Assembly (NCBI GenBank): GCA_050997075.1
Contig: JBPCRH010000039.1
Span: forward strand, 1-30,023
Length of the DNA stretch: 30,023 nucleotides
From: Chthoniobacterales bacterium
Lineage (GTDB): Bacteria > Verrucomicrobiota > Verrucomicrobiia > Chthoniobacterales > UBA10450
Direction: 5' to 3'
Position numbers and translations under genes: made by a program. The notes below the pieces were generated by a model, which saw nothing but the letters and a program-made list of their open reading frames with translations, did no database searches and had not been told where the DNA came from. Below are positions 974 through 28,381 of this stretch, in pieces (position 1 is the stretch's first letter; each line of letters starts with the position of its first letter).

Positions 974-1023
974 AAGGCCGGAAGGTAGCGACGGAACCCG
1001 AGGCGCGCCAACCGCAGGTAGTT

Positions 1024-1140
1024 GTAGAGGCGGCCGTGTCGGCCGCAGAGCGAAGGCTTGCCCCCTGCCATGGGTCGGAAACAGGCGCGCTCCCCGACCA
1101 CTACGCGCCAACTAACTACGGGCGACACGCCCACCGCTAC
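1024..1140. repeat. REPIN-like doublet, GTAG-type REP family B
   Basis: GTAGAG-GCGGCCG-TGT-CGGCCGC at 1024-1046. The inverted partner reads GTAGCGG-TGGGCG-TGT-CGCCCG on the minus strand (1120-1140). Confidence 0.7.
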
Positions 1141-1182: not shown

Positions 1183-1307
1183 GTTGTCATACCGAGTCGC
1201 GCAGACGACGAGGGATCTCGCAGGCGCCTTTCGGCGTCGTTCCAGAAATCGCGTCGGGCAACGCTTGTGCGATCCCTCTCCGTGCTGCGGAGGATCGGGA
1301 TGACAAC
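1183..1307. repeat. Long palindromic repeat, family E (GTCATCCCGAG...GGATC / GATCC...CTCGGGATGAC), copy 1, degenerate
   Basis: Terminal arms GTTGTCATACCGA...GAGGGATCTC and GCGATCCCTC...TCGGGATGACAAC. Homologous to the copies at 5974 and 27805. Confidence 0.75.
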
Positions 1308-4340: not shown

Positions 4341-4472
4341 AAATGACGAAACCAGAAACCCGAAATCCGAAACAATGACGAAGGCACAAATGACGAAAGA
4401 CGCCGCAAGCTGCCGTTTCGGATTTCGTCATTCGTCATTATTTCGTGCTTCGGATTTCGGATTTCGTCATTT
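4341..4472. repeat. Imperfect inverted array of heptamers (AATGACG/CGAAATC versus CGTCATT/GATTTCG)
   Basis: AAATGACGAAA (4341) pairs with TTTCGTCATTT (4462). Several AATGACGA and CCGAAA units are mirrored by TTCGGAT and TCGTCAT units. Confidence 0.8.
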
Positions 4473-4478
4473 CCCCTA

Positions 4479-4952
4479 ATGTCGCAATTCGTCCCACCGC
4501 GGCCCCGGATCGTCAGCGTGAAGCGCGGCTTCACCCTCGTCGCGAGCCAGTTCAACGCGAAATATGTGCAGGGCCTCGTGACCCATTGCACCGAGGAACT
4601 GCGCACGCTTTCGCCGCAGGCGAACGTGACCTTGCACCTCGTGCCGGGCGCATTTGAAATCCCCTTCGTCGTCCGGGAAGTCGCGCTCAAGCGAACGGCC
4701 GACGCAATTATTGCGCTTGGCGTGATCATTGACGGCGACACCGACCACGCGCGCCTCCTCGGCGAAGTCGTGACCCGGGCGCTCCAGCAGGTCGCGCTCG
4801 AAGAGGGCGTGCCCGTCATTCACGCGGTCCAGAGTTTGAAAAACGAAGAGCAGGCGCGCGAGCGTTGCCTCGAGCAACGGATCAACCGCGGGACGGAAGC
4901 CGCGCGGGCCGCCTTCGAGATGGCCAACCTCGTCGCCGAGCTCCGGAAATAG
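4479..4952 (+). CDS. ribH: 6,7-dimethyl-8-ribityllumazine synthase
   Basis: ASQFN, VPGAFEIP, DAIIALGVII and EQARER..NRGTEAA motifs; directly downstream of ribBA. Confidence 0.95.
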   Translation: MSQFVPPRPRIVSVKRGFTLVASQFNAKYVQGLVTHCTEELRTLSPQANVTLHLVPGAFEIPFVVREVALKRTADAIIALGVIIDGDTDHARLLGEVVTRALQQVALEEGVPVIHAVQSLKNEEQARERCLEQRINRGTEAARAAFEMANLVAELRK

Positions 4953-4953
4953 C

Positions 4954-5379
4954 ATGGGCAAGCGTCACTCGGCGCGGCGCGCGGCGCTGCAATATCATTT
5001 CTGGCGCGACCTCCATGGCGGCGACAGCCCGGAATCGCTCGCGGAATTCTGGGAGCTTTGTCCGGCAAAAACCAGTGTCCAGGATTTCGCCCAGCCGCTG
5101 ATCGAAGGGATGCTCCTGCACCTGCCGGAGATCGACGAGCGAATCGCGCGTTACTGCGAGAACTTCGAGTTTCGCCGCATCGCCGCGGTCGATCGCAACG
5201 TCCTCCGGCTCGGGATTTACGAGATGTTTTACCGCGACGACATCCCGCCGGTGGTCTCGATCAACGAAGCGATCGAGCTCGCGAAGGAATTTGGCGGGCC
5301 CGATTCGGGCCGGTTCGTCAACGGCATCCTCGACCGGGTGAAAGACGACCTCTCACGCCCGCTGCGCGACGCACTGTAG
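4954..5379 (+). CDS. nusB: Transcription antitermination factor NusB
   Basis: RHSARRAALQ, RIAAVDRNVLRLGIYEM and INEAIELAKEFGGPDSGRFVNGILD; canonical ribH-nusB order. Confidence 0.97.
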   Translation: MGKRHSARRAALQYHFWRDLHGGDSPESLAEFWELCPAKTSVQDFAQPLIEGMLLHLPEIDERIARYCENFEFRRIAAVDRNVLRLGIYEMFYRDDIPPVVSINEAIELAKEFGGPDSGRFVNGILDRVKDDLSRPLRDAL

Positions 5380-5399
5380 ACGCTTCGCTCTGCGAAGCG
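5374..5399 (+). repeat. GTAG-type REP family C, single copy (CTGTAGACGCTTCGCTCTGCGAAGCG)
   Basis: Identical to 24238-24263. Hairpin CGCTTCGC-TCT-GCGAAGCG; its TAG is the nusB stop codon. Confidence 0.85.
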
Positions 5400-5426
5400 C
5401 GGGCGCGGCCCGCCTCAGAATCTTTA

Positions 5427-5496: not shown

Positions 5497-6741
5497 CTAA
5501 GTCGCATCGACCCTCAGCCTCATTTGCACGCTCAACCCTTCGCGCGGAAGCGGCGGCGAAAAAACCGGCGGATAAAGCTGCGGATCCATCCCCGTAACCT
5601 GGAGGCGAAACGGCTCCGCGCTCAGGCGCACACAATCGCCACCTAACGACAACTCGTCCAGCTTCAGGCCGCGCCCGTCGGCCGCGATCTCGGCAATTTC
5701 GACCACGGTGAGGGCACTAAAAAAATCAATCCGCAGGTGACGCACCGGCTCGTCCGCCGGAAGCGGGATGACCACTTCCTTCCAGCTCCCGTGTCCGATC
5801 CGGGCATCGACCGATTGCGTTTCCGAGAAGTTTCCATCCGTCGACCAGAAAACCTGGAGCACGGTCTCGCTCGCCATCGGCGCGCGGCGAACGCTCCCAT
5901 CGCGCCATTGCCGCGCCATCATCTCCTGCAAGGCGCCGTGGCGCTGCCGATAATAAAAGCGCAAACCATCACGGTCATCCGGAGCGGAGCGCAGCGCAGT
6001 CGAAGGATCCCGGGGAGTCGCCGTGAGGCTCCCAGCGCCCGTGCGGTCGCTTCCCAGAAACTCAGCGGGATCCCTCGACTCCGCTCCGCTTCGCTCGGGA
6101 TGACCGAGTAACGTCTCCAGGAGCGCCGATTGCGCGCGCGCCGGCGGCTTTTCCCACACCCCGAGTCCCGGCGGAGTCGCGAAGGTAAAAGAGCGTCCGC
6201 GCGTCGCGAGTTCCTCCCACACTTTCCAAACGCCAAACCCTCGCCCACGCACCGCCACATCGTGGAGTAGAAGAATCCCACCCGGGCGCAGCTTCGGCAG
6301 CCATGACTCGACGTCGTGCCGCGCCGCCTCTTCCGTGTGATGACCGTCGACGTGCAGCAGATCAACGCTCTCCCGCGCGAACCGGCTGAGCGCGTCATCG
6401 AAGCTCGACCGCAGCAAAGTCGAGAAGGCCGCGTAGTGAACCCGATTATGTTCACTCACGTCCTGGTAAGTCGCTTCGTCATAAGATCCGGCGTGCGAAT
6501 CACCCAGCCAATGATCGACCGCGAAACACCTGGTGCCGGTCTGGTTTTCGCAGACCGACTGACAGAAGGCAAAATAACTTTCCCCGCGATCGGTGCCTAA
6601 CTCCACGAACACTTCGGGGCGCAACTGCGCGACCAGGTCGTAGGCGAAGAAGATATGTTCCGTCCACGCGCCCAAGCCATAGCGCAACGGCTCGAAATCG
6701 TGCGAAGGATAACTCGGGAGGCAACGCTCAAGGGGCGGCAT
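5497..6741 (-). CDS. Class I SAM-dependent methyltransferase (Methyltransf_24-like) with an in-frame palindromic insert and a C-terminal beta-sandwich domain
   Basis: FVELGTDRGES, CFAVDHWLGD, VDLLHVDGHHT and GGILLLHDV motifs. ATG 6741 is preceded by GGAGGAGG. Confidence 0.9.
   Translation of the reverse strand: MPPLERCLPSYPSHDFEPLRYGLGAWTEHIFFAYDLVAQLRPEVFVELGTDRGESYFAFCQSVCENQTGTRCFAVDHWLGDSHAGSYDEATYQDVSEHNRVHYAAFSTLLRSSFDDALSRFARESVDLLHVDGHHTEEAARHDVESWLPKLRPGGILLLHDVAVRGRGFGVWKVWEELATRGRSFTFATPPGLGVWEKPPARAQSALLETLLGHPERSGAESRDPAEFLGSDRTGAGSLTATPRDPSTALRSAPDDRDGLRFYYRQRHGALQEMMARQWRDGSVRRAPMASETVLQVFWSTDGNFSETQSVDARIGHGSWKEVVIPLPADEPVRHLRIDFFSALTVVEIAEIAADGRGLKLDELSLGGDCVRLSAEPFRLQVTGMDPQLYPPVFSPPLPREGLSVQMRLRVDAT
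5974..6105. repeat. Family E palindromic repeat, copy 2, inside the methyltransferase CDS (132 bp = 44 codons)
   Basis: GTCATCCGGAGCGGAGCGCAGCGCAGTCGAAGGATCCC ... GGGATCCCTCGACTCCGCTCCGCTTCGCTCGGGATGACC. Translated as GHPERSGAESRDP...RDPSTALRSAPDD. Confidence 0.92.
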
Positions 6742-11191: not shown

Positions 11192-12795
11192 CCTACACCG
11201 ACTGGATCGTCCGCTACGACACTTTGACGCCCGAGAAACGTGCTGAGCTTCGCCGCGAAGTCTACGCGTTGAGTGATCAGCCGCTCATCTCGATTCTCCT
11301 GCCGGTTTACAATGCCGATCTAAGATTCCTGGACGAAGCGATCGCTTCGGTGCGGCGACAGATTTATGACAAGTGGGAGCTCTGTATTGCCGACGATGCG
11401 TCCACCAACCTGCGAGTAAGGTCCTATCTCGAGGCGCTCGCCTGGAGCGATACGCGCATCAAACTGCTCTTCCGCGAGGTGAACGGCCACATCTCTGCCT
11501 GCTCCAATTCGGCGCTCACGCTGGCCAGCGGTGATTGGTGTGCGCTCCTCGACCAGGATGATGCGCTCGCCGAAAACGCGCTCGCCGAAGTCGCCTGCGC
11601 AATCGCGGGACACGCAGACCCTGGCATCATTTACTCCGACGAAGATTTCCTCGACTCGTTAGGCGCGCGTTCCAACCCATTCTTCAAGCCGGATTGGAAT
11701 CCCGAACTCTTTTTGGGACAGAATTACCTTAACCATCTTGGCGTTTATCGGACGAGTCTGCTGCGCGAAATCGGCGGATTCCGCGAAGGGTTTGAAGGTT
11801 CCCAGGATTACGATCTTGCGCTGCGCTGTCGCGCGCGTTTGCGACCCGATCAAATTCTTCACGTCCCGCGCATTCTTTATCATTGGCGAATGATTGTGGG
11901 AAGTCTCGCCGACCAGCCCGATGCGAAACCATACGCGCGCCACGCCGCGCGCCGGGCGCTCAACAGTTACTTGCGCGAATGTGGGATCGCAGCTCAGGCA
12001 GAGGCCTGCCCGGAAAATGCAGAATCGCATCGTGTCATTTACGAGCTGCCAGTACCGTTTCCGAGCGTGACAATCCTGCTGATGGGGCGCGACAGGCCGT
12101 CCTCGCTGGAGCGCACTGATTATCCCGCGCTTGAATTTATTCTGGCGGAACCCGGTGCAGCCGGAGCGAACTTCGCGGCGAGAAATGCTCGCGGAGAAGT
12201 CCTCGTTTTTTTGAGCGGCGAAATTGAAGTTATCGAACCGTCCTGGCTCAGAGAGATGGTTAGTCACGCCATCAGACTCGAGGTCGGGGCGGTGGGCGCG
12301 CGCCTTTGGTCGGCCGATGGGAATCTTGACGATGGAGACCTGATCCTCGGCCTGGGCGGAATTGCCGCCCCGGCGTTTCGCGGCTTTCCGCGGGGGCACC
12401 CGGGCTATTTTAATCGCGCCTGGCTCCAGCAAAATTGTTCGGCTGTTTCGGCCGCCTGCATGGTCATGCGGAAAGAAGCTTTTACTCAGCTCGACGGCTT
12501 CGACGAACGGAATCTCTCGCGCCGCTTTTTCGACGTGGATTTCTGCCTCCGGCTGCGCCAGCGCGGGTTGCAAGTGGTCTGGACGCCGTATGCCAACCTA
12601 ATCTTTCGCGGGTCCGGCTCGCGCGAGGAATCGCAATCCTCAGCCGAAGCGGTTTACATGCAGAAGCAGTGGGGCCCGCAGTTACGCAACGATCCATTTT
12701 ACAATCCTAACCTGTCGCTCGATCCACCAGGATTTGGGATAGCGTTTCCGCCCCGGCCCAATGACATTAACTCTGGCCAACGACCGGTCCGGTGA
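11188..12795 (+). CDS. Glycosyltransferase family 2, two GT-A domains, second domain degenerate
   Basis: ISILLPVYN, CIADDAS, LLDQDD, YSDED and SQDYDL in domain 1. ATGA overlap with the upstream GT4. Confidence 0.92.
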   Translation: MTYTDWIVRYDTLTPEKRAELRREVYALSDQPLISILLPVYNADLRFLDEAIASVRRQIYDKWELCIADDASTNLRVRSYLEALAWSDTRIKLLFREVNGHISACSNSALTLASGDWCALLDQDDALAENALAEVACAIAGHADPGIIYSDEDFLDSLGARSNPFFKPDWNPELFLGQNYLNHLGVYRTSLLREIGGFREGFEGSQDYDLALRCRARLRPDQILHVPRILYHWRMIVGSLADQPDAKPYARHAARRALNSYLRECGIAAQAEACPENAESHRVIYELPVPFPSVTILLMGRDRPSSLERTDYPALEFILAEPGAAGANFAARNARGEVLVFLSGEIEVIEPSWLREMVSHAIRLEVGAVGARLWSADGNLDDGDLILGLGGIAAPAFRGFPRGHPGYFNRAWLQQNCSAVSAACMVMRKEAFTQLDGFDERNLSRRFFDVDFCLRLRQRGLQVVWTPYANLIFRGSGSREESQSSAEAVYMQKQWGPQLRNDPFYNPNLSLDPPGFGIAFPPRPNDINSGQRPVR

Positions 12796-15900: not shown

Positions 15901-18410
15901 GTCTTCCACGGCTGCGTCAGCCGCGGCGGGAAAGCGGGAGTAAAAAGCTCTTCGTCCAGCGAGAGATTCGGGTTGTAAAACGGGTCCGCGCGCAGAGTCT
16001 CGCCCCACTTCGCGTTCATGTATGCCACCTCCGCGAGAAAACGCGCCTGCTTCTCCCCCGTGTCTTCGAGACCGCGGCTGGCGGATTCATGATGGACCAG
16101 CTCGGCATGCGGCGTCCAGACGATCGCGAAGCCCGCCGCACGCAGCCGGAGGCAGAAATCGATGTCGTTGAAGGCAACCGCGAGGTGTTCCTGATCGAGC
16201 CCGCCGACTTCCAGATAAAGTTCCCGCCTAACGACTGCGCAAGCGGCCGTGACCGCGGAGAAATTCTGCGTCAGATGCGCGCGCGCGAAATAGCCGTCTT
16301 CCTCCCGCACGCCAAGATGGGCGTGGCCGGCGATGCCGCCGACGCCGAGGATGACGCCGCCATGTTGCAGCGTCCCGTCCGGATACCGGAGCCGCGCGCC
16401 GACCATCCCGACTTCCGGTCGGACCGCATGGCTCACCATCTCGCTCAGCCATTCTGCATTTTTCACCTCGATGTCGTTGTTGAGGAGGGCAACGAGCGAG
16501 CCGCGGGCGAGGGCGACGCCGAGGTTGTTCAGCCGGCTATAATTGAATGCGCCCTCGACCCGTTCCACCCGCACCCTCCCGCCTAACGAATCCAGATAGG
16601 CGAGCGTCTCCGGCTCGCGGCTCTCGTTGTCGAGCACGAGCACTTCAAAATTTTCGTAAACGGTTCGCGCGAAAATGCTCTCGATACATGCGCGCAGGAG
16701 CGCCATCCGATCGCGCGTCGGGATCAGAATCGAGACCAGCGGAGCCGGCGCCGGCAGCGGATATTTCACGCGCTGATAAATCCGATGATGGGGCACGACC
16801 AGGCCGCCGGTTCCGCGCCGGTCGAGATGTTCCTGGACGGCGCGGATGGCGGCGTTATGCGCATACGGTTTCGCGCGCAAGTCCGTGGCGGTGCTCTCCT
16901 CCGTCATCCGCCAATGATAAAGCACCCGCGAAATGTGGCCGATCTGCTCTGGCTCGATCTGCTCGAGGACGCGCAAAGCGAGATCGTAATCCTGCGAGCA
17001 TTCAAAACCTTCACGAAAGCCACCGATTCGCCTAACCAGCTCGCGCTCATGGACGACGAGGTGGCCAAAAAAATTCTGCCCGAGGAAAAGCTCGGGGTTC
17101 CAGTCGGATTTAAAATAGGGATCGCAACGCCGGCCGCGCGGGTCGAGCTTATCCTCGTCGCTGTAGAGCAGGCGGAGCGCACAATTTTCCCGCAGGGCAA
17201 GAGCGACGAAATAGAGCGCGGCCGGCGCAAGCTCATCGTCGTGATCGAGCAGGGCGATGAACTTTCCCTGCGCGAGCGCAAGGGCCTCATTCGAGGCGGC
17301 GGCGATCTGGCCGTTCGCCTTCCGGCGGAGCAGGCGGATGCGCGCATCGCGCCGGGCAAACTTCTGCAGAAGCGGCCAGATGCCGGGGCGGCTCGAGGCA
17401 TCGTCGGCGATGCAAAGTTCCCAATGCGGATAGAGCTGCGCTTGCGCCGAGCGAACGGCGCGACGGAGCCAGCGCGGGTCCGGGTTGTAAACGGGGAGGA
17501 GGATGGAGATGAGCGGCGGATCCTCCCAACGGGCGATCTGCCCAGCAATGGCGCGGCGATCCTCGCGGGTGAGCTGGTCGTAGCGGCGAATCCAATAGGC
17601 GTAATCGCCGATCGTTTCCCCCCCGTCGCCTTCGCGCCAGAGCGGTCCGCGCACTGGATGCGTGAAGAACTTTTCCCACTCGCCCGCGCCGCTCCGCACT
17701 TCGAGGAAAAGTTGGGCGCGGCCAGGCGGCGCCACGATGTCGATGGTGAATCCGCTCACGAGCGCGCCCGGCCGATCGGGGAAAAGCATCGCGATATCGG
17801 GTCGGACCAGCCCGAAGCGGCCGGCAAATTCCTTCCGCCGCAGCCGCGCCCGCACCGCCGTGAGAGGTTCCCCCGCCGTCGCGAGACACCAGCCGGAGAG
17901 GCGGAGATGGCGCCGCCGCACCGACCAGTCGGCGGGCCGGTCGAGCCAGAAATCGATCCGCGAGCTGGCCGCAGGATTCGGGATGAAATATTTCGGGTCC
18001 TGCGGTGGCGCCGGCTTTTCGTTAGGCGCGCCGATCCAACTGCGGCAGTCGATCGGCTGCCACGTTCCCGGTCCATCCCTGATCTCGACCAGCACATCGG
18101 ATGGGCCCGCGGGCAGCGGCACGGCGACGGCGAAGCCCACGCGCTCCGCGCCTGGGCCGAGATCGTGCGCGCAGGCGACATCCTTGCGTTCACTGCCGTA
18201 ATTGCCCGGAAAAACGCGCCGCCCGATCCGCGCCCGAATCTCGTGAATCCTTGCGCCCTCCTTGCGAGGGAGGCACCAACCCTGGAGATAGAGCGTGTGG
18301 CGCGGCGCGCTCGTTTCCGGCGGATGATCGAACCACCAACGATAACGCTTCTTCGTCCGCTTAATCTGGTTCGCCAGCGAGAGGGCGGGCGCTGCCGAAA
18401 AAAACCTCAT
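15897..18410 (-). CDS. Glycosyltransferase family 2 with two N-terminal RPDV modules and two GT-A domains
   Basis: ISILLPVYN/CIADDAS/LLDHDD in domain 1 and SILIPTRD/VLDNES/LLNNDIE/HHESASRG in domain 2. ATG 18410 preferred over TTG 18434. Confidence 0.92.
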   Translation of the reverse strand: MRFFSAAPALSLANQIKRTKKRYRWWFDHPPETSAPRHTLYLQGWCLPRKEGARIHEIRARIGRRVFPGNYGSERKDVACAHDLGPGAERVGFAVAVPLPAGPSDVLVEIRDGPGTWQPIDCRSWIGAPNEKPAPPQDPKYFIPNPAASSRIDFWLDRPADWSVRRRHLRLSGWCLATAGEPLTAVRARLRRKEFAGRFGLVRPDIAMLFPDRPGALVSGFTIDIVAPPGRAQLFLEVRSGAGEWEKFFTHPVRGPLWREGDGGETIGDYAYWIRRYDQLTREDRRAIAGQIARWEDPPLISILLPVYNPDPRWLRRAVRSAQAQLYPHWELCIADDASSRPGIWPLLQKFARRDARIRLLRRKANGQIAAASNEALALAQGKFIALLDHDDELAPAALYFVALALRENCALRLLYSDEDKLDPRGRRCDPYFKSDWNPELFLGQNFFGHLVVHERELVRRIGGFREGFECSQDYDLALRVLEQIEPEQIGHISRVLYHWRMTEESTATDLRAKPYAHNAAIRAVQEHLDRRGTGGLVVPHHRIYQRVKYPLPAPAPLVSILIPTRDRMALLRACIESIFARTVYENFEVLVLDNESREPETLAYLDSLGGRVRVERVEGAFNYSRLNNLGVALARGSLVALLNNDIEVKNAEWLSEMVSHAVRPEVGMVGARLRYPDGTLQHGGVILGVGGIAGHAHLGVREEDGYFARAHLTQNFSAVTAACAVVRRELYLEVGGLDQEHLAVAFNDIDFCLRLRAAGFAIVWTPHAELVHHESASRGLEDTGEKQARFLAEVAYMNAKWGETLRADPFYNPNLSLDEELFTPAFPPRLTQPWKT

Positions 18411-21650: not shown

Positions 21651-21706
21651 CGGCGCTACTCAACCGTTCGCGGGGGCTTTGTGCAATCTGCGGGTGGTCC
21701 CCGAGT

Positions 21707-21797
21707 TGTAGACGCCTCCCTCTGGGAGGCGCGAGGGTGAGGTCGCTATCTGGATCGGGCGCCAACGCTAGCGCTTCGCAGAGAGAAGCGTCTGCAG
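21707..21797. repeat. REPIN of REP family C, variant arms
   Basis: TGTAGA-CGCCTCCC-TCT-GGGAGGCG (21707-21731) and inverted CGCTTCGCAGAGAGAAGCGTCTGCAG (21772-21797). Confidence 0.8.
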
Positions 21798-23683: not shown

Positions 23684-24243
23684 CCGCGCCGCTCCAACCT
23701 GTCGATCCGGCGCAGAACTCGCCCTACGCGTCGCCGTGGTCGAGTTCGGAGCGGGCACTGCGCGTTCTTTGGGAATTTTGCTGGGCGGTTTTTTGTTCCT
23801 GGACGCCGAAACCGCTGAACCCGTGGCGGCTTTTCTTGCTGCGCACGTTCGACGCGAAAATTCACGGGATGCCGTTTGTGCATCAGCGCGCGCGGATCGC
23901 GATTCCCTGGAACCTGACGATGCACGACCGCGCCAGCCTGGGCGATCGGGCGAATGCCTATTCGTTAGGCGAAATCGAAATCGGCCCACGCGCGATCGTC
24001 GCCCAGGAAGTTTATTTGAGCTCGGGGAGTCACGACTTTTCCCAACCCGCCTGTCCGCTGGTGGTCGCGAAAATCACGATCGGGGAGGAAGCGTTTATCG
24101 GCGCGCGGGCGTTCGTGATGCCGGGCGTGACGATCGGGGCGCGGGCGCTCGTAGGCGCCTGCTCGGTCGTGACCAAGGATCTGCCGAGTGATGTCGTGGC
24201 CGCGGGCAATCCCTGCCGCGTGTTGCGTCCGCGCGGGCTGTAG
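23680..24243 (+). CDS. wcaF: WcaF-like polysaccharide O-acetyltransferase (left-handed beta-helix)
   Basis: WTPKPLNPWRLFLLRTF, PWNLTM, SSGSHDFS, hexapeptide repeats and VAAGNPCR. ATGA overlap with the GT4 gene. Confidence 0.85.
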   Translation: MTAPLQPVDPAQNSPYASPWSSSERALRVLWEFCWAVFCSWTPKPLNPWRLFLLRTFDAKIHGMPFVHQRARIAIPWNLTMHDRASLGDRANAYSLGEIEIGPRAIVAQEVYLSSGSHDFSQPACPLVVAKITIGEEAFIGARAFVMPGVTIGARALVGACSVVTKDLPSDVVAAGNPCRVLRPRGL

Positions 24244-24326
24244 ACGCTTCGCTCTGCGAAGCGCGGGAGGAGCGTATGCGGGCGGACGGCGTCGATCCCG
24301 CGTTTCGCAGAGCGAAACGTCTACAG
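24238..24326. repeat. REPIN of REP family C
   Basis: CTGTAGACGCTTCGCTCTGCGAAGCG (24238-24263) and inverted CGTTTCGCAGAGCGAAACGTCTACAG (24301-24326). Supplies the TAG stop of the wcaF-like gene. Confidence 0.9.
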
Positions 24327-24359
24327 TAGCAGCAGCATTCGCCAGGGTTACGCGCGAGG

Positions 24360-26341: not shown

Positions 26342-27733
26342 CTAAAACTCGGCGCTGCCCGGGGTGCGCGCGAAAGGGATGACGTCCCGGATATTCGCCA
26401 CTCCGGTCACGAACATGAGCATGCGCTCGAAGCCCATTCCGAAGCCCGCATGCGGGACGGTGCCGTAGCGGCGCAGGTCGAGATACCATTTGTAATCGGC
26501 CGGATCCATTTGATGCCGGCGGATGTTTTCCTCGAGCACCTCGAGGCGCTCTTCACGCTGGCTGCCACCGACGATTTCGCCGATGCCCGGGACGAGCAGG
26601 TCCATCGCTGTCACCGTGCTCTCGTCGTCGTTCAGGCGCATGTAGAACGGCTTGATCTCCTTTGGGTAATCGAAAACCGTAACCGGACACTTGCAGTGTT
26701 TTTCGGTGAGCCAGCGCTCGTGTTCGGATTGGAGGTTGAGGCCGTAATCGACCGGGAACTCGAACTTCTCGCCGCTCGCGAGGAGGAGTTTTATTGCCTC
26801 TTCGTAGCTGATCCGCTGGAAGGGTCGCTCGACCACAAACTCGAGGCGCGCGAGCAGTTCCTTGTCGACGCATTTCGCGAAAAGCCCGAGGTCTTCCGCG
26901 CAGTTCTCGCGGATGTCGCGCACGAGGTATTTCACCATTTCCTCGGCGAGATCCATGTCGCCCGCGAGATCGCAAAAAGCCATCTCCGGCTCGATCATCC
27001 AGAACCCATTCGCGTGCCGGGACGTGTTCGAGTTCTCCGCGCGGAAAGTCGGACCAAAGGTGTAAACCTTCGAGAGCGCGCAGGCGAACGCCTCGGCCTC
27101 GAGCTGGCCGCTGACCGTGAGATAAGTGCGCCGCGCGAAAAAATCCTGCGCGTAATCGACGCCGCCGTCGTTAGGCAAAACCGGCGCGTTTTGCGGATCG
27201 AAGGTGGTGACGCGGAAGAGCTCGCCCGCGCCTTCGCAGTCGCTCCCGGTGATGATCGGCGTGTGCACGTAAACGAAGCCGCGTTCCTGGAAGAATTGGT
27301 GCACGGCGAATGCGAGCCGGCTGCGCACGCGGAAGACGCAACCGAACAAATTCGAGCGCGGCCGCAGGTGCGAGATCTCACGGAGAAACTCCGGCGTGTG
27401 TCCCTTTTTCTGGAGCGGATAGGTCTCGTCGGACGCGCCCACGATCTCAATTTCATCGGCGACCAGTTCCCAGCTCTGGCCTTTCCCTTGCGAGGCGACG
27501 AGCGGACCGCGCGCGCGAAGCGAGGCGCCGGTCGTCAGGCGCTGGACGGCGTCGTAGTTCAGCAAAGTATCGCGCGCGATGATCTGGAGATTGCGCAGGC
27601 AGGAGCCATCATTGAGCTCCACAAAAGAGAACTCCTTCGCGTCGCGCCGGGTGCGCACCCACCCCTGCACCGTGATCACATCTGCCGGGACCGTGCGCGC
27701 GAGGGCTTCTTTCACTGATGTCGCCGAGGCCAT
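26342..27733 (-). CDS. asnS: Asparagine--tRNA ligase
   Basis: [48 protein letters not shown] and [11 protein letters not shown] motifs. Confidence 0.98.
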
Positions 27734-27804: not shown

Positions 27805-27907
27805 GTCATCCCGAGCGCAGGGCAGCGCAGTCGAGGAATCCCGGAGCAAGCTTTAAGGTTTCGCCACCGGATCCCTCGACTTTGCCTCCGGCTCCGCTCG
27901 GGATGAC
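27805..27907. repeat. Family E palindromic repeat, copy 3
   Basis: GTCATCCCGAGCG...GTCGAGGAATCC ... GGATCCCTCGAC...CGCTCGGGATGAC, intergenic upstream of asnS. Confidence 0.88.
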
Positions 27908-27979: not shown

Positions 27980-28381
27980 TTAGGCAGTTTCCCGCATCGG
28001 TTCATCGTCGCCGAGCATTTCGTCGACGCAGTTGATGAGGTCGGAAATCTGAAACGGCTTCGCGACGAAGGAGTAGCCGCTGAGATAGCCGACCGAGCCG
28101 ATGACGCCGTTCGCGGCGAGGCTGCTCACGAAGACAATCGGCACATCCTGAAGCGCGGGATCGTCGCGGAGCTGTTGCGCGACTTCGTGGCCGTCGAGCT
28201 CCGGCATCATCATGTCGAGCAGGATCAGGTCCGGGTGAAAATGCCGGGCGGCATGGAGCGCGCGCAGACTGCGGTTCTCTTCCTTGATCACATAGCGCCC
28301 GGTGGCGGCGAAGGCGGCGCGGACGAGCGCGGTCAGATGCGGTTCGTCGTCGATGATGAGGAGGCGGCGCGGGAAGAACAT
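27980..28381 (-). CDS. Single-domain response regulator (CheY-like receiver)
   Basis: LIIDDE, DLILLDMMMPELDG (phospho-acceptor Asp), FVSS and VAKPF motifs. Confidence 0.92.
   Translation of the reverse strand: MFFPRRLLIIDDEPHLTALVRAAFAATGRYVIKEENRSLRALHAARHFHPDLILLDMMMPELDGHEVAQQLRDDPALQDVPIVFVSSLAANGVIGSVGYLSGYSFVAKPFQISDLINCVDEMLGDDEPMRETA

What the first reader, a model, noticed from the sequence alone, without database searches (positions are those of the whole stretch)
5974..6105. Palindromic repeat translated in frame inside a methyltransferase (RPE-like protein insertion)
Seen: a 132-bp family E palindrome, whose relatives are intergenic at 1183-1307 and 27805-27907, sits inside CDS 5497-6741. 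It keeps the frame open and adds 44 residues (GHPERSGAESRDP...RDPSTALRSAPDD) right after the methyltransferase fold and before a helical linker. Established: Rickettsia palindromic elements insert into ORFs and add surface-exposed peptides. Inference: the same route of protein innovation is used here by a different repeat family, possibly with an RNA hairpin that affects expression.
Basis: partly seen in the sequence, partly recalled or inferred. Interest (0 to 1): 0.75.

Follow-up and report, generated by a model that had tools for sequence, protein, structure and literature searches.

The report
Mobile palindromic repeat translated inside methyltransferase
A 135-base hairpin-forming repeat, present in hundreds of copies in this soil Verrucomicrobiota genome, sits in frame in the linker of a working methyltransferase gene and in at least six other genes; this is a real example of a habit already known from Rickettsia and other bacteria.

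Summary
Window 5972-6106 is a 135-nt imperfect palindrome (RNA fold -96 kcal/mol, z = -7) lying in frame in CDS 5497-6741(-), a Methyltransf_24 protein, where it adds residues 213-256.

It belongs to a repeat family with 331 arm copies (123 paired elements) in this 61%-complete Chthoniobacterales MAG. The family has no target-site duplication, a strict outward-facing arm pair, and compensatory changes within each arm, so it is REPIN-like. It lacks the GTAG/CGTC tag and shows no link to a RAYT gene.

In the same genus, three other genomes carry the insert at this site and 13 have a short linker instead. AlphaFold places the insert as a disordered loop between two confident domains. The downstream domain has dN/dS of 0.12-0.20, so translation runs through the insert.

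At least six other genes here (Mfd, an SNF2 helicase, an alpha-amylase, a class-V aminotransferase, a DNA methylase and a helicase) carry in-frame copies. Two of these were verified against filled and empty orthologues.

Between species the arms stay 90-95% identical while synonymous sites are near saturation, so something constrains or homogenises the DNA itself.

Verdict: a new member of a known kind (Rickettsia RPEs, intragenic REPs). This scan has found similar cases on other genomes. No function is shown for the peptide or the hairpin.

The parts
5972..6106 (-). Complete palindromic element (135 nt = 45 codons), in frame in the host CDS; encodes residues 213-256 plus parts of the two bordering codons
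6067..6104 (-). Arm 1 in mRNA sense (38 nt, matches the family pattern with 0 mismatches); read as the HPERS... peptide
   Evidence: (45.5 bits)
6012..6066 (-). Spacer between the arms (55 nt); extends the hairpin; diverges at the neutral rate between species
5974..6011 (+). Arm 2 (38 nt); its reverse complement is read in the mRNA as the ...RDPST...DD peptide
   Evidence: 42.7 bits
5497..6741 (-). Host CDS, 414 aa: Methyltransf_24 domain, then the insert, then a long helix and a beta-sandwich domain
6106..6741 (-). N-terminal class I SAM methyltransferase fold (aa 1-212), confidently modelled; dN/dS 0.04-0.13 among insert-bearing orthologues
5497..5973 (-). C-terminal part (aa 257-414): helix 256-281 and beta-sandwich 292-412, confidently modelled; dN/dS 0.12-0.20 among insert-bearing orthologues
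27805..27907 (.). Intergenic member of the same repeat family (short-spacer form), between ORFs 26342-27733(-) and 27980-28381(-)
1183..1307 (.). Intergenic palindrome of a different, at most distantly related, family; not detected by the arm model

Best explanation
A non-autonomous, hairpin-forming mobile repeat inserted into the interdomain linker of a SAM-dependent methyltransferase gene. The repeat is two 38-nt arms in inverted orientation around a 28-65-nt spacer and is REPIN-like. The copy survived because its length keeps the frame, the frame that is read has no stop, and the site is a flexible surface linker. It is transcribed and translated with the gene as a roughly 44-residue disordered loop, and both flanking domains keep working. 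It is most likely a tolerated passenger rather than a functional module. Shown: the element, its family, in-frame status, filled and empty orthologous sites, purifying selection on both flanking domains, recurrence in other genes, and arm conservation far above the synonymous rate. Inferred: that it arrived by transposition of a single-strand hairpin type (no target duplication), that it is translated, and that the arms are kept similar either by gene conversion from the many other copies or by a factor that recognises them. Whether the methyltransferase insert arose once with later loss, or two or three times at the same site, is not settled.
For: Family and architecture: there are 331 arm hits and 123 paired elements in 2.48 Mb. 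All 123 close pairs are '+ then -', with spacers clustering at about 28, 49 and 63 nt. No direct flanking repeat of 2-8 nt exceeds chance. Within-arm compensatory pairs: positions 8-31 are C-G in 244 arms and T-A in 57; positions 6-33 are C-G in 262 and T-A in 39. Insertion: the six nearest homologues have the insert and the rest do not; the same-genus genomes G366, G382 and G313 are filled and 13 loci are empty. Frame retention: inserts of 132-145 nt in four species, including one with a 10-nt arm expansion, all stay in frame without stops. Translation through the insert: dN/dS is 0.12-0.20 for the downstream domain with dS of 0.9-2.0. Structure: pLDDT is below 50 for residues 222-249 and 84-96 for the flanking domains. 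Recurrence: in-frame copies sit in Mfd, an SNF2 helicase, an alpha-amylase, a helicase, an N6/N4 DNA methylase and a class-V aminotransferase. The Mfd and aminotransferase cases have filled and empty orthologues in the genus. Arm conservation (G000 vs G366): arms 95% and 90% identical, flanking CDS 73%, third codon positions 54%, loop 54%. Arm scores decay where the family is rare (G382, G301). Not an assembly artefact: the same insert appears in independent assemblies.
Against: There are no expression, proteomic or transposition data. No mobilising enzyme was identified: none of the 20 Y1-transposase loci examined has an arm nearby, and no full-length IS carries these ends. The filled allele does not equal the empty allele plus the element: about six linker residues (xxPNEx) are missing, so the original junction cannot be reconstructed. 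The flank-only tree needs at least two or three changes. An empty-site protein (P0007) nests inside the insert clade, and the P0005/P0006/G313 clade carries a different arm variant. High arm conservation could also mean recent, independent insertions.
Confidence: 0.8

Rival explanations
1. The element is retained because its nucleic-acid structure does something in cis. For example, the long mRNA hairpin could be an RNase III target or a translational pause site between the two domains, or the DNA could be a binding site for a host protein. Selection on the DNA or RNA would then explain why the arms stay near consensus inside a coding region.
For: The predicted hairpin is very stable. The arms are 90-95% identical between species while synonymous sites are only about 50% identical. 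Arm 2 of the aminotransferase insert is identical in G000 and G265 although third positions are 59% identical. The arm consensus is nearly invariant across 12 genera.
Against: The arms decay in G382, and in G301 and G382 at the aminotransferase site, while both genes stay intact, so the host gene does not need them. The same pattern is expected from gene conversion by the other copies. G265, the genome richest in repeats, has an empty methyltransferase site. Most orthologues work without the element.
Confidence: 0.15
2. The insert is an adaptive protein innovation: the 44-residue peptide acts as a functional linker, interaction motif or localisation signal.
For: It has persisted in frame in several species. 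Similar peptides occur in several proteins.
Against: The loop part evolves at the neutral rate (about 50% DNA identity). The peptide is predicted to be disordered. The same DNA is read in different frames in different hosts and species. The host proteins are functionally unrelated. Close relatives lack it.
Confidence: 0.08
3. The segment is ancestral and was deleted in the 'empty' lineages, or the gene in this MAG is a chimeric assembly or a pseudogene.
For: The host genome is a fragmented MAG with 480 contigs and 61% completeness.
Against: The segment is a member of a 331-copy dispersed repeat. Every listed match from other genera and families breaks at aa ~212-221, before the insert. Independent assemblies carry the same insert. 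The frame is intact and both domains are under purifying selection.
Confidence: 0.02

Closest known systems
Rickettsia palindromic elements (RPEs; Ogata et al. 2000/2002, Claverie & Ogata 2003, as summarised in PMC10969869 and PMC3733652)
   Same: Palindromic repeats of about 100-150 bp, dispersed in the genome. Some copies are inserted in frame in unrelated, apparently functional genes, where they add a peptide at a permissive site. Orthologues lack the insert. No known transposase.
   Different: Different phylum (free-living soil Verrucomicrobiota, 62% G+C, versus an obligate intracellular alphaproteobacterium). Sequence relatedness to RPEs was not tested (see the membership table). A smaller share of copies is intragenic: about 7-13 of 123 elements plus a few solo arms, against nearly half in three RPE families.
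REP / REPIN elements and intragenic REPs (Bertels & Rainey 2011, PMC3116915; Di Nocera et al. 2013, PMC3733652)
   Same: Short imperfect-palindrome units arranged as inverted doublets that can fold into a long hairpin; no target duplication; hundreds of copies. [quoted passage not shown]
   Different: The arms start with GTCATCC and carry no GTAG or CGTC tag. None of the 20 Y1 (RAYT-like) transposase loci examined is flanked by these arms. The arm loop is a run of three or four pentamers whose number varies.
Bacterial MITEs with in-frame intragenic copies (ERIC, QMITE1 of Coxiella, Nezha; PMC10969869, PMC5896051)
   Same: Size range, terminal inverted repeats, occasional in-frame fusions with host ORFs.
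   Different: No target-site duplication, and no parent insertion sequence with the same ends was found.

Membership tests
RPE-like in-frame palindromic elements (functional class) | Dispersed palindromic repeat of about 100-150 bp | tested here: met
   123 paired elements of 93-291 nt, mode 124-150; stable hairpin
RPE-like in-frame palindromic elements (functional class) | Copies inserted in frame in otherwise conserved genes, with orthologues that lack the insert | tested here: met
   Methyltransferase, Mfd, aminotransferase; four more by Pfam flanks
RPE-like in-frame palindromic elements (functional class) | Host gene remains functional | tested here: inconclusive
   Purifying selection on both domains and a confident fold, but no activity or expression data
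Rickettsia RPE families proper (RPE-1 to RPE-10) | Sequence homology to a described RPE family | not tested
   No RPE sequences were at hand. Rfam gave only generic hairpin look-alikes far below threshold
REP/REPIN-RAYT system | 20-40-nt imperfect palindrome unit | tested here: met
   38-nt arm with an internal stem supported by two compensatory pairs
REP/REPIN-RAYT system | Units arranged as inverted doublets | tested here: met
   123 of 127 close pairs are '+ then -'; the two arms of a pair are often of different covariation types
REP/REPIN-RAYT system | GTAG or CGTC terminal tag (Di Nocera superfamilies) | tested here: not met
   The arms start sharply with GTCATCC
REP/REPIN-RAYT system | A RAYT (Y1 transposase) gene flanked by the same REPs | tested here: not met
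   5 Y1 loci in G000 and 15 in G265/G313/G246 have no arm on the same G000 contig or within the roughly +/-1.5 kb loci
MITE | Terminal inverted repeats and a size of 70-300 bp | tested here: met
MITE | Target-site duplication | tested here: not met
   No excess of 2-8-nt direct flanking repeats at any of six boundary offsets
MITE | Parent insertion sequence with the same ends | tested here: not met
   No inverted arm pair 250-6000 nt apart in G000. The MAG is fragmented, so this is weak

The most novel reading that the evidence does not exclude
The arms of this repeat are under direct nucleotide-level maintenance even inside coding regions, either through recognition by an unidentified enzyme or through gene conversion. 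This Chthoniobacterales lineage has a general 'live in frame inside genes' ecology shared by at least three element types: this untagged REPIN-like family, GTAG-tagged REPs, and whole REP-RAYT cassettes. The same permissive protein loops are colonised repeatedly and independently.
Probability: 0.3. Interest if true: 0.6.

Novelty: new member of a known kind. Interest (0 to 1): 0.36.

Why it matters
It extends RPE-type 'selfish DNA inside protein genes' to a free-living, GC-rich soil lineage. It also provides a natural series of filled, empty and decaying sites across dozens of species of one genus. That series can be used to measure how long such inserts persist, whether they are lost precisely, and what keeps their arms constant. 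In practice, these repeats break MAG assemblies, create spurious ORFs and inflate protein lengths, so recognising them improves annotation of Chthoniobacterales genomes.

Tried and rejected
Orthologue DNA came from the genome search instead.
- A search of the 5.8-billion-protein collection with the 44-aa peptide returned only the query itself; such a short query cannot reach significance there.
- Rfam gave only plant and animal microRNA-precursor models far below their thresholds, which are generic hairpin matches.
- The RAYT link was rejected: no arms lie near any Y1 transposase gene.
- The classic MITE reading was rejected for lack of a target duplication and of a parent IS.
- The idea that the element is specially stop-free was rejected. 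It has 2.76 open frames of 6, against 2.0 for shuffles and 2.85 for random genomic windows of the same length.
- Element lengths show no bias toward multiples of three (40/41/42), so there is no sign of a family-wide adaptation to coding.
- A single clean origin of the methyltransferase insert could not be shown.

Full report
**The sequence.** Window 5972-6106 is an imperfect palindrome: arms 5972-6029 and 6049-6106, 58 nt, 79% complementary. It lies wholly inside the minus-strand ORF whose likely start is the ATG at 6741 (5497-6741, 414 aa). The palindrome is 135 nt, which is 45 codons. Pfam finds Methyltransf_24 at residues 46-162 (E 2e-26). As RNA, the sense strand folds to -96.3 kcal/mol against -63.7 +/- 4.7 for shuffles (z = -7). 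Rfam has no family for it.

**The repeat family.** The window is a whole contig of a 2.48-Mb, 480-contig assembly that is 61% complete and belongs to the order Chthoniobacterales.
- An iterated nhmmer model of the 38-nt arm (consensus printed) finds 331 arms. Of these, 123 form pairs and 85 are solo, 20 of them near contig ends.
- Every close pair is '+ then -', with the GTCATCC end outward. Spacers cluster at about 28, 49 and 63 nt. Total lengths run from 93 to 291 nt with no bias toward multiples of three.
- There is no target-site duplication of 2-8 nt at any boundary offset.
- Within the arm, two position pairs covary in Watson-Crick fashion: 8-31 is C-G in 244 arms and T-A in 57, and 6-33 is C-G in 262 and T-A in 39. 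Each arm is therefore itself a small hairpin. Its loop is a run of pentamers whose number varies, which explains why different copies are read in different frames.
- The two arms of one element are often of different covariation types.
- This is the anatomy of a REP doublet (REPIN). However, the arms carry neither the GTAG nor the CGTC tag of the described REP superfamilies (PMC3733652). None of the 20 Y1-transposase loci examined (5 here, 15 in three sister genomes) has an arm nearby, and no IS-length element carries these ends. The mobilising enzyme is unknown.
1183-1307 is an intergenic palindrome that the arm model does not recognise.

**Distribution.**
- In the genus (50 genomes) arm counts range from about 393 (G265), 165 (G000), 118 (G313), 75, 63, 31 and 20 down to zero in 31 genomes. 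A reversed-pattern control gives zero everywhere.
- In an order-wide sample of 301 genomes, 19 of 39 genomes of the same taxonomic family are positive, spread over 11 further genera. Only 2 of 261 genomes from the other 15 families are positive. The arm consensus is almost invariant across genera.
- One of the 19 positive genomes (G155) is flagged unpublished; without it the count is 18 of 38.

**Is it an insertion?** Among 1524 homologues, the six nearest (66-84% identity) have 44-55 extra residues at this site, and all more distant ones have a short xPNE linker.
- Whole-genome searches found three other same-genus genomes with a filled site (G366, G382, G313) and 13 loci with an empty site.
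- The inserts in G000, G366 and G382 share boundaries and length (132-135 nt). G313 has a 10-nt arm expansion that shifts the frame inside the arm and is compensated, plus seven extra residues after arm 2. All four remain open.
- The filled allele lacks about six linker residues that are present in the empty alleles, so the original junction cannot be reconstructed.
- A maximum-likelihood tree of the flanks only needs at least two or three changes of state. The main insert clade (support 97/92) contains one empty-site protein, P0007. The P0005/P0006/G313 clade, which has the different arm variant, is placed separately in an unresolved node.
- So either there was one old insertion followed by losses, or there were two or three hits on the same loop.

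**Is the gene still working?** Among insert-bearing orthologues, dN/dS is 0.04-0.13 for the methyltransferase domain and 0.12-0.20 for the domain downstream of the insert, with dS of 0.9-3.9. The downstream domain has therefore been kept by selection since the insertion, which requires translation through the insert. The AlphaFold2 model (pLDDT 84, pTM 0.82) has confident domains on both sides: the methyltransferase fold to about residue 212, helix 256-281 and a beta-sandwich at 292-412. Residues 222-249 have pLDDT below 50. The insert is best read as a disordered interdomain loop.

**Recurrence.** I screened the 123 elements for spanning open frames with a coding-type GC pattern on both flanks and then ran Pfam on the candidates. 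In-frame copies lie in the following genes:
- Mfd/TRCF;
- an SNF2 helicase;
- an alpha-amylase, where the insert splits the catalytic-domain match;
- a helicase;
- an N6/N4 DNA methylase;
- a class-V aminotransferase, where the match is also split.

Two further long ORFs have no Pfam match, and four solo arms beyond those already counted also sit in long coding-like frames. Two cases were checked against orthologues:
- The Mfd insert is present in G366, G382 and G265 and absent from most of the genus.
- The aminotransferase insert is present in seven other species, with lengths of 102-180 nt, always in frame. It is absent from about 35.
- At that same loop G319 carries a different, GTAG-tagged palindrome. 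Mfd of G000 carries a second in-frame palindrome of yet another GTAG-tagged family at residues 526-558. Permissive loops are evidently hit repeatedly, and by several families.

**What keeps the arms?** Between G000 and G366 the arms are 95% and 90% identical. The flanking CDS is 73% identical, its third positions 54%, and the element's spacer 54%. In the aminotransferase, arm 2 is identical in G000 and G265 although third positions are 59% identical. Protein-level selection cannot explain conservation at synonymous positions. The arms are consensus-like in genomes where the family is abundant and decayed where it is rare: in G382 (20 arms) the hairpin drops to -61 kcal/mol, and G301 (9 arms) is weak. 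I infer maintenance that depends on the family, either gene conversion or recognition by a family-specific factor, rather than a need of the host gene. Recent independent insertion remains possible.

**Comparison with the literature.** In-frame palindromic repeats are established for Rickettsia (RPEs), and reviews call in-frame intragenic MITE fusions 'not unusual' (PMC10969869). Di Nocera et al. (PMC3733652) report REPs inside genes in several species, many of them in replication and repair genes, which fits Mfd, the SNF2 helicase and the methylase here. They also note GTAG REPs in the verrucomicrobium Opitutus terrae. I found no description of this particular family. Earlier reports of this scan describe similar in-frame repeats on other genomes. 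The finding is therefore a new member of a known kind.

**Use of flagged genomes.** The tools flagged G337, G379, G393, G152, G271, G403 and G155 as unpublished. No specific claim rests on them. They enter only the genus and order tallies, as zero-copy or empty-site rows or, for G155, as one positive.

Noticed in passing
G000 contigs C276 (L064:1-1875, -), C359 (L065:1-1881, -), C205 (L067:2-2281, +); also L119 (G265), L120, L122, L123 (G313): Y1/HUH (IS200/RAYT-like) transposase domains lie in frame inside housekeeping genes. In ValRS the domain is between tRNA-synt_1 profile positions 256 and 279. In CarB it is between the oligomerisation domain and the second pre-ATP-grasp domain. In MetH it is between the B12-binding and activation domains. 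RecG of G313 has a weak Y1 hit (24 bits; not recovered by Pfam at 1e-4) in an insert-sized gap between DEAD and Helicase_C. The CarB insert of about 270-300 aa is orthologous in G000, G265 and G313 and is bracketed by direct peptide repeats that look like translated REPs. In the genus it is present in at least 13 genomes and absent from at least 9. Earlier reports of this scan describe the same lifestyle in other Verrucomicrobiota.
   Followed up: partly
L001:3081-3224 (G000 C259, Mfd residues 526-558); a half copy at window 1023-1050: A second palindromic repeat family, unrelated and GTAG-tagged, is inserted in frame in the CarD/TRCF RID domain of Mfd. It has about 30 BLAST hits in the genome, and most same-genus Mfd genes lack the segment.
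   Followed up: partly
L105 (G319:C6:393127-394263): At the aminotransferase loop where seven species carry the GTCATCC-type element, G319 carries a different, nearly perfect GTAG-tagged palindrome in frame. This is an independent insertion at the same permissive site.
   Followed up: partly
window 5373-5405, 21706-21797, 24238-24327: A third hairpin repeat, containing GTAG near its outer end, occurs once just downstream of the NusB-like ORF (4954-5379) and as inverted doublets at two other places (D2, I8-I10, I17).
   Followed up: no
window 4341-4491: An A/T-rich inverted and direct repeat built from TTTCGGATTTCGTCATT-like units lies just upstream of the 157-aa ORF at 4479-4952 and overlaps its first 13 nt. 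It stands out in a 62% G+C genome (I4, I13, D9).
   Followed up: no
window 12244-12370 and 16325-16451: A 127-nt inverted repeat, 71% complementary, with arms 4 kb apart (I1). It is probably two paralogous gene segments in opposite orientation within the glycosyltransferase cluster.
   Followed up: no
   Followed up: no
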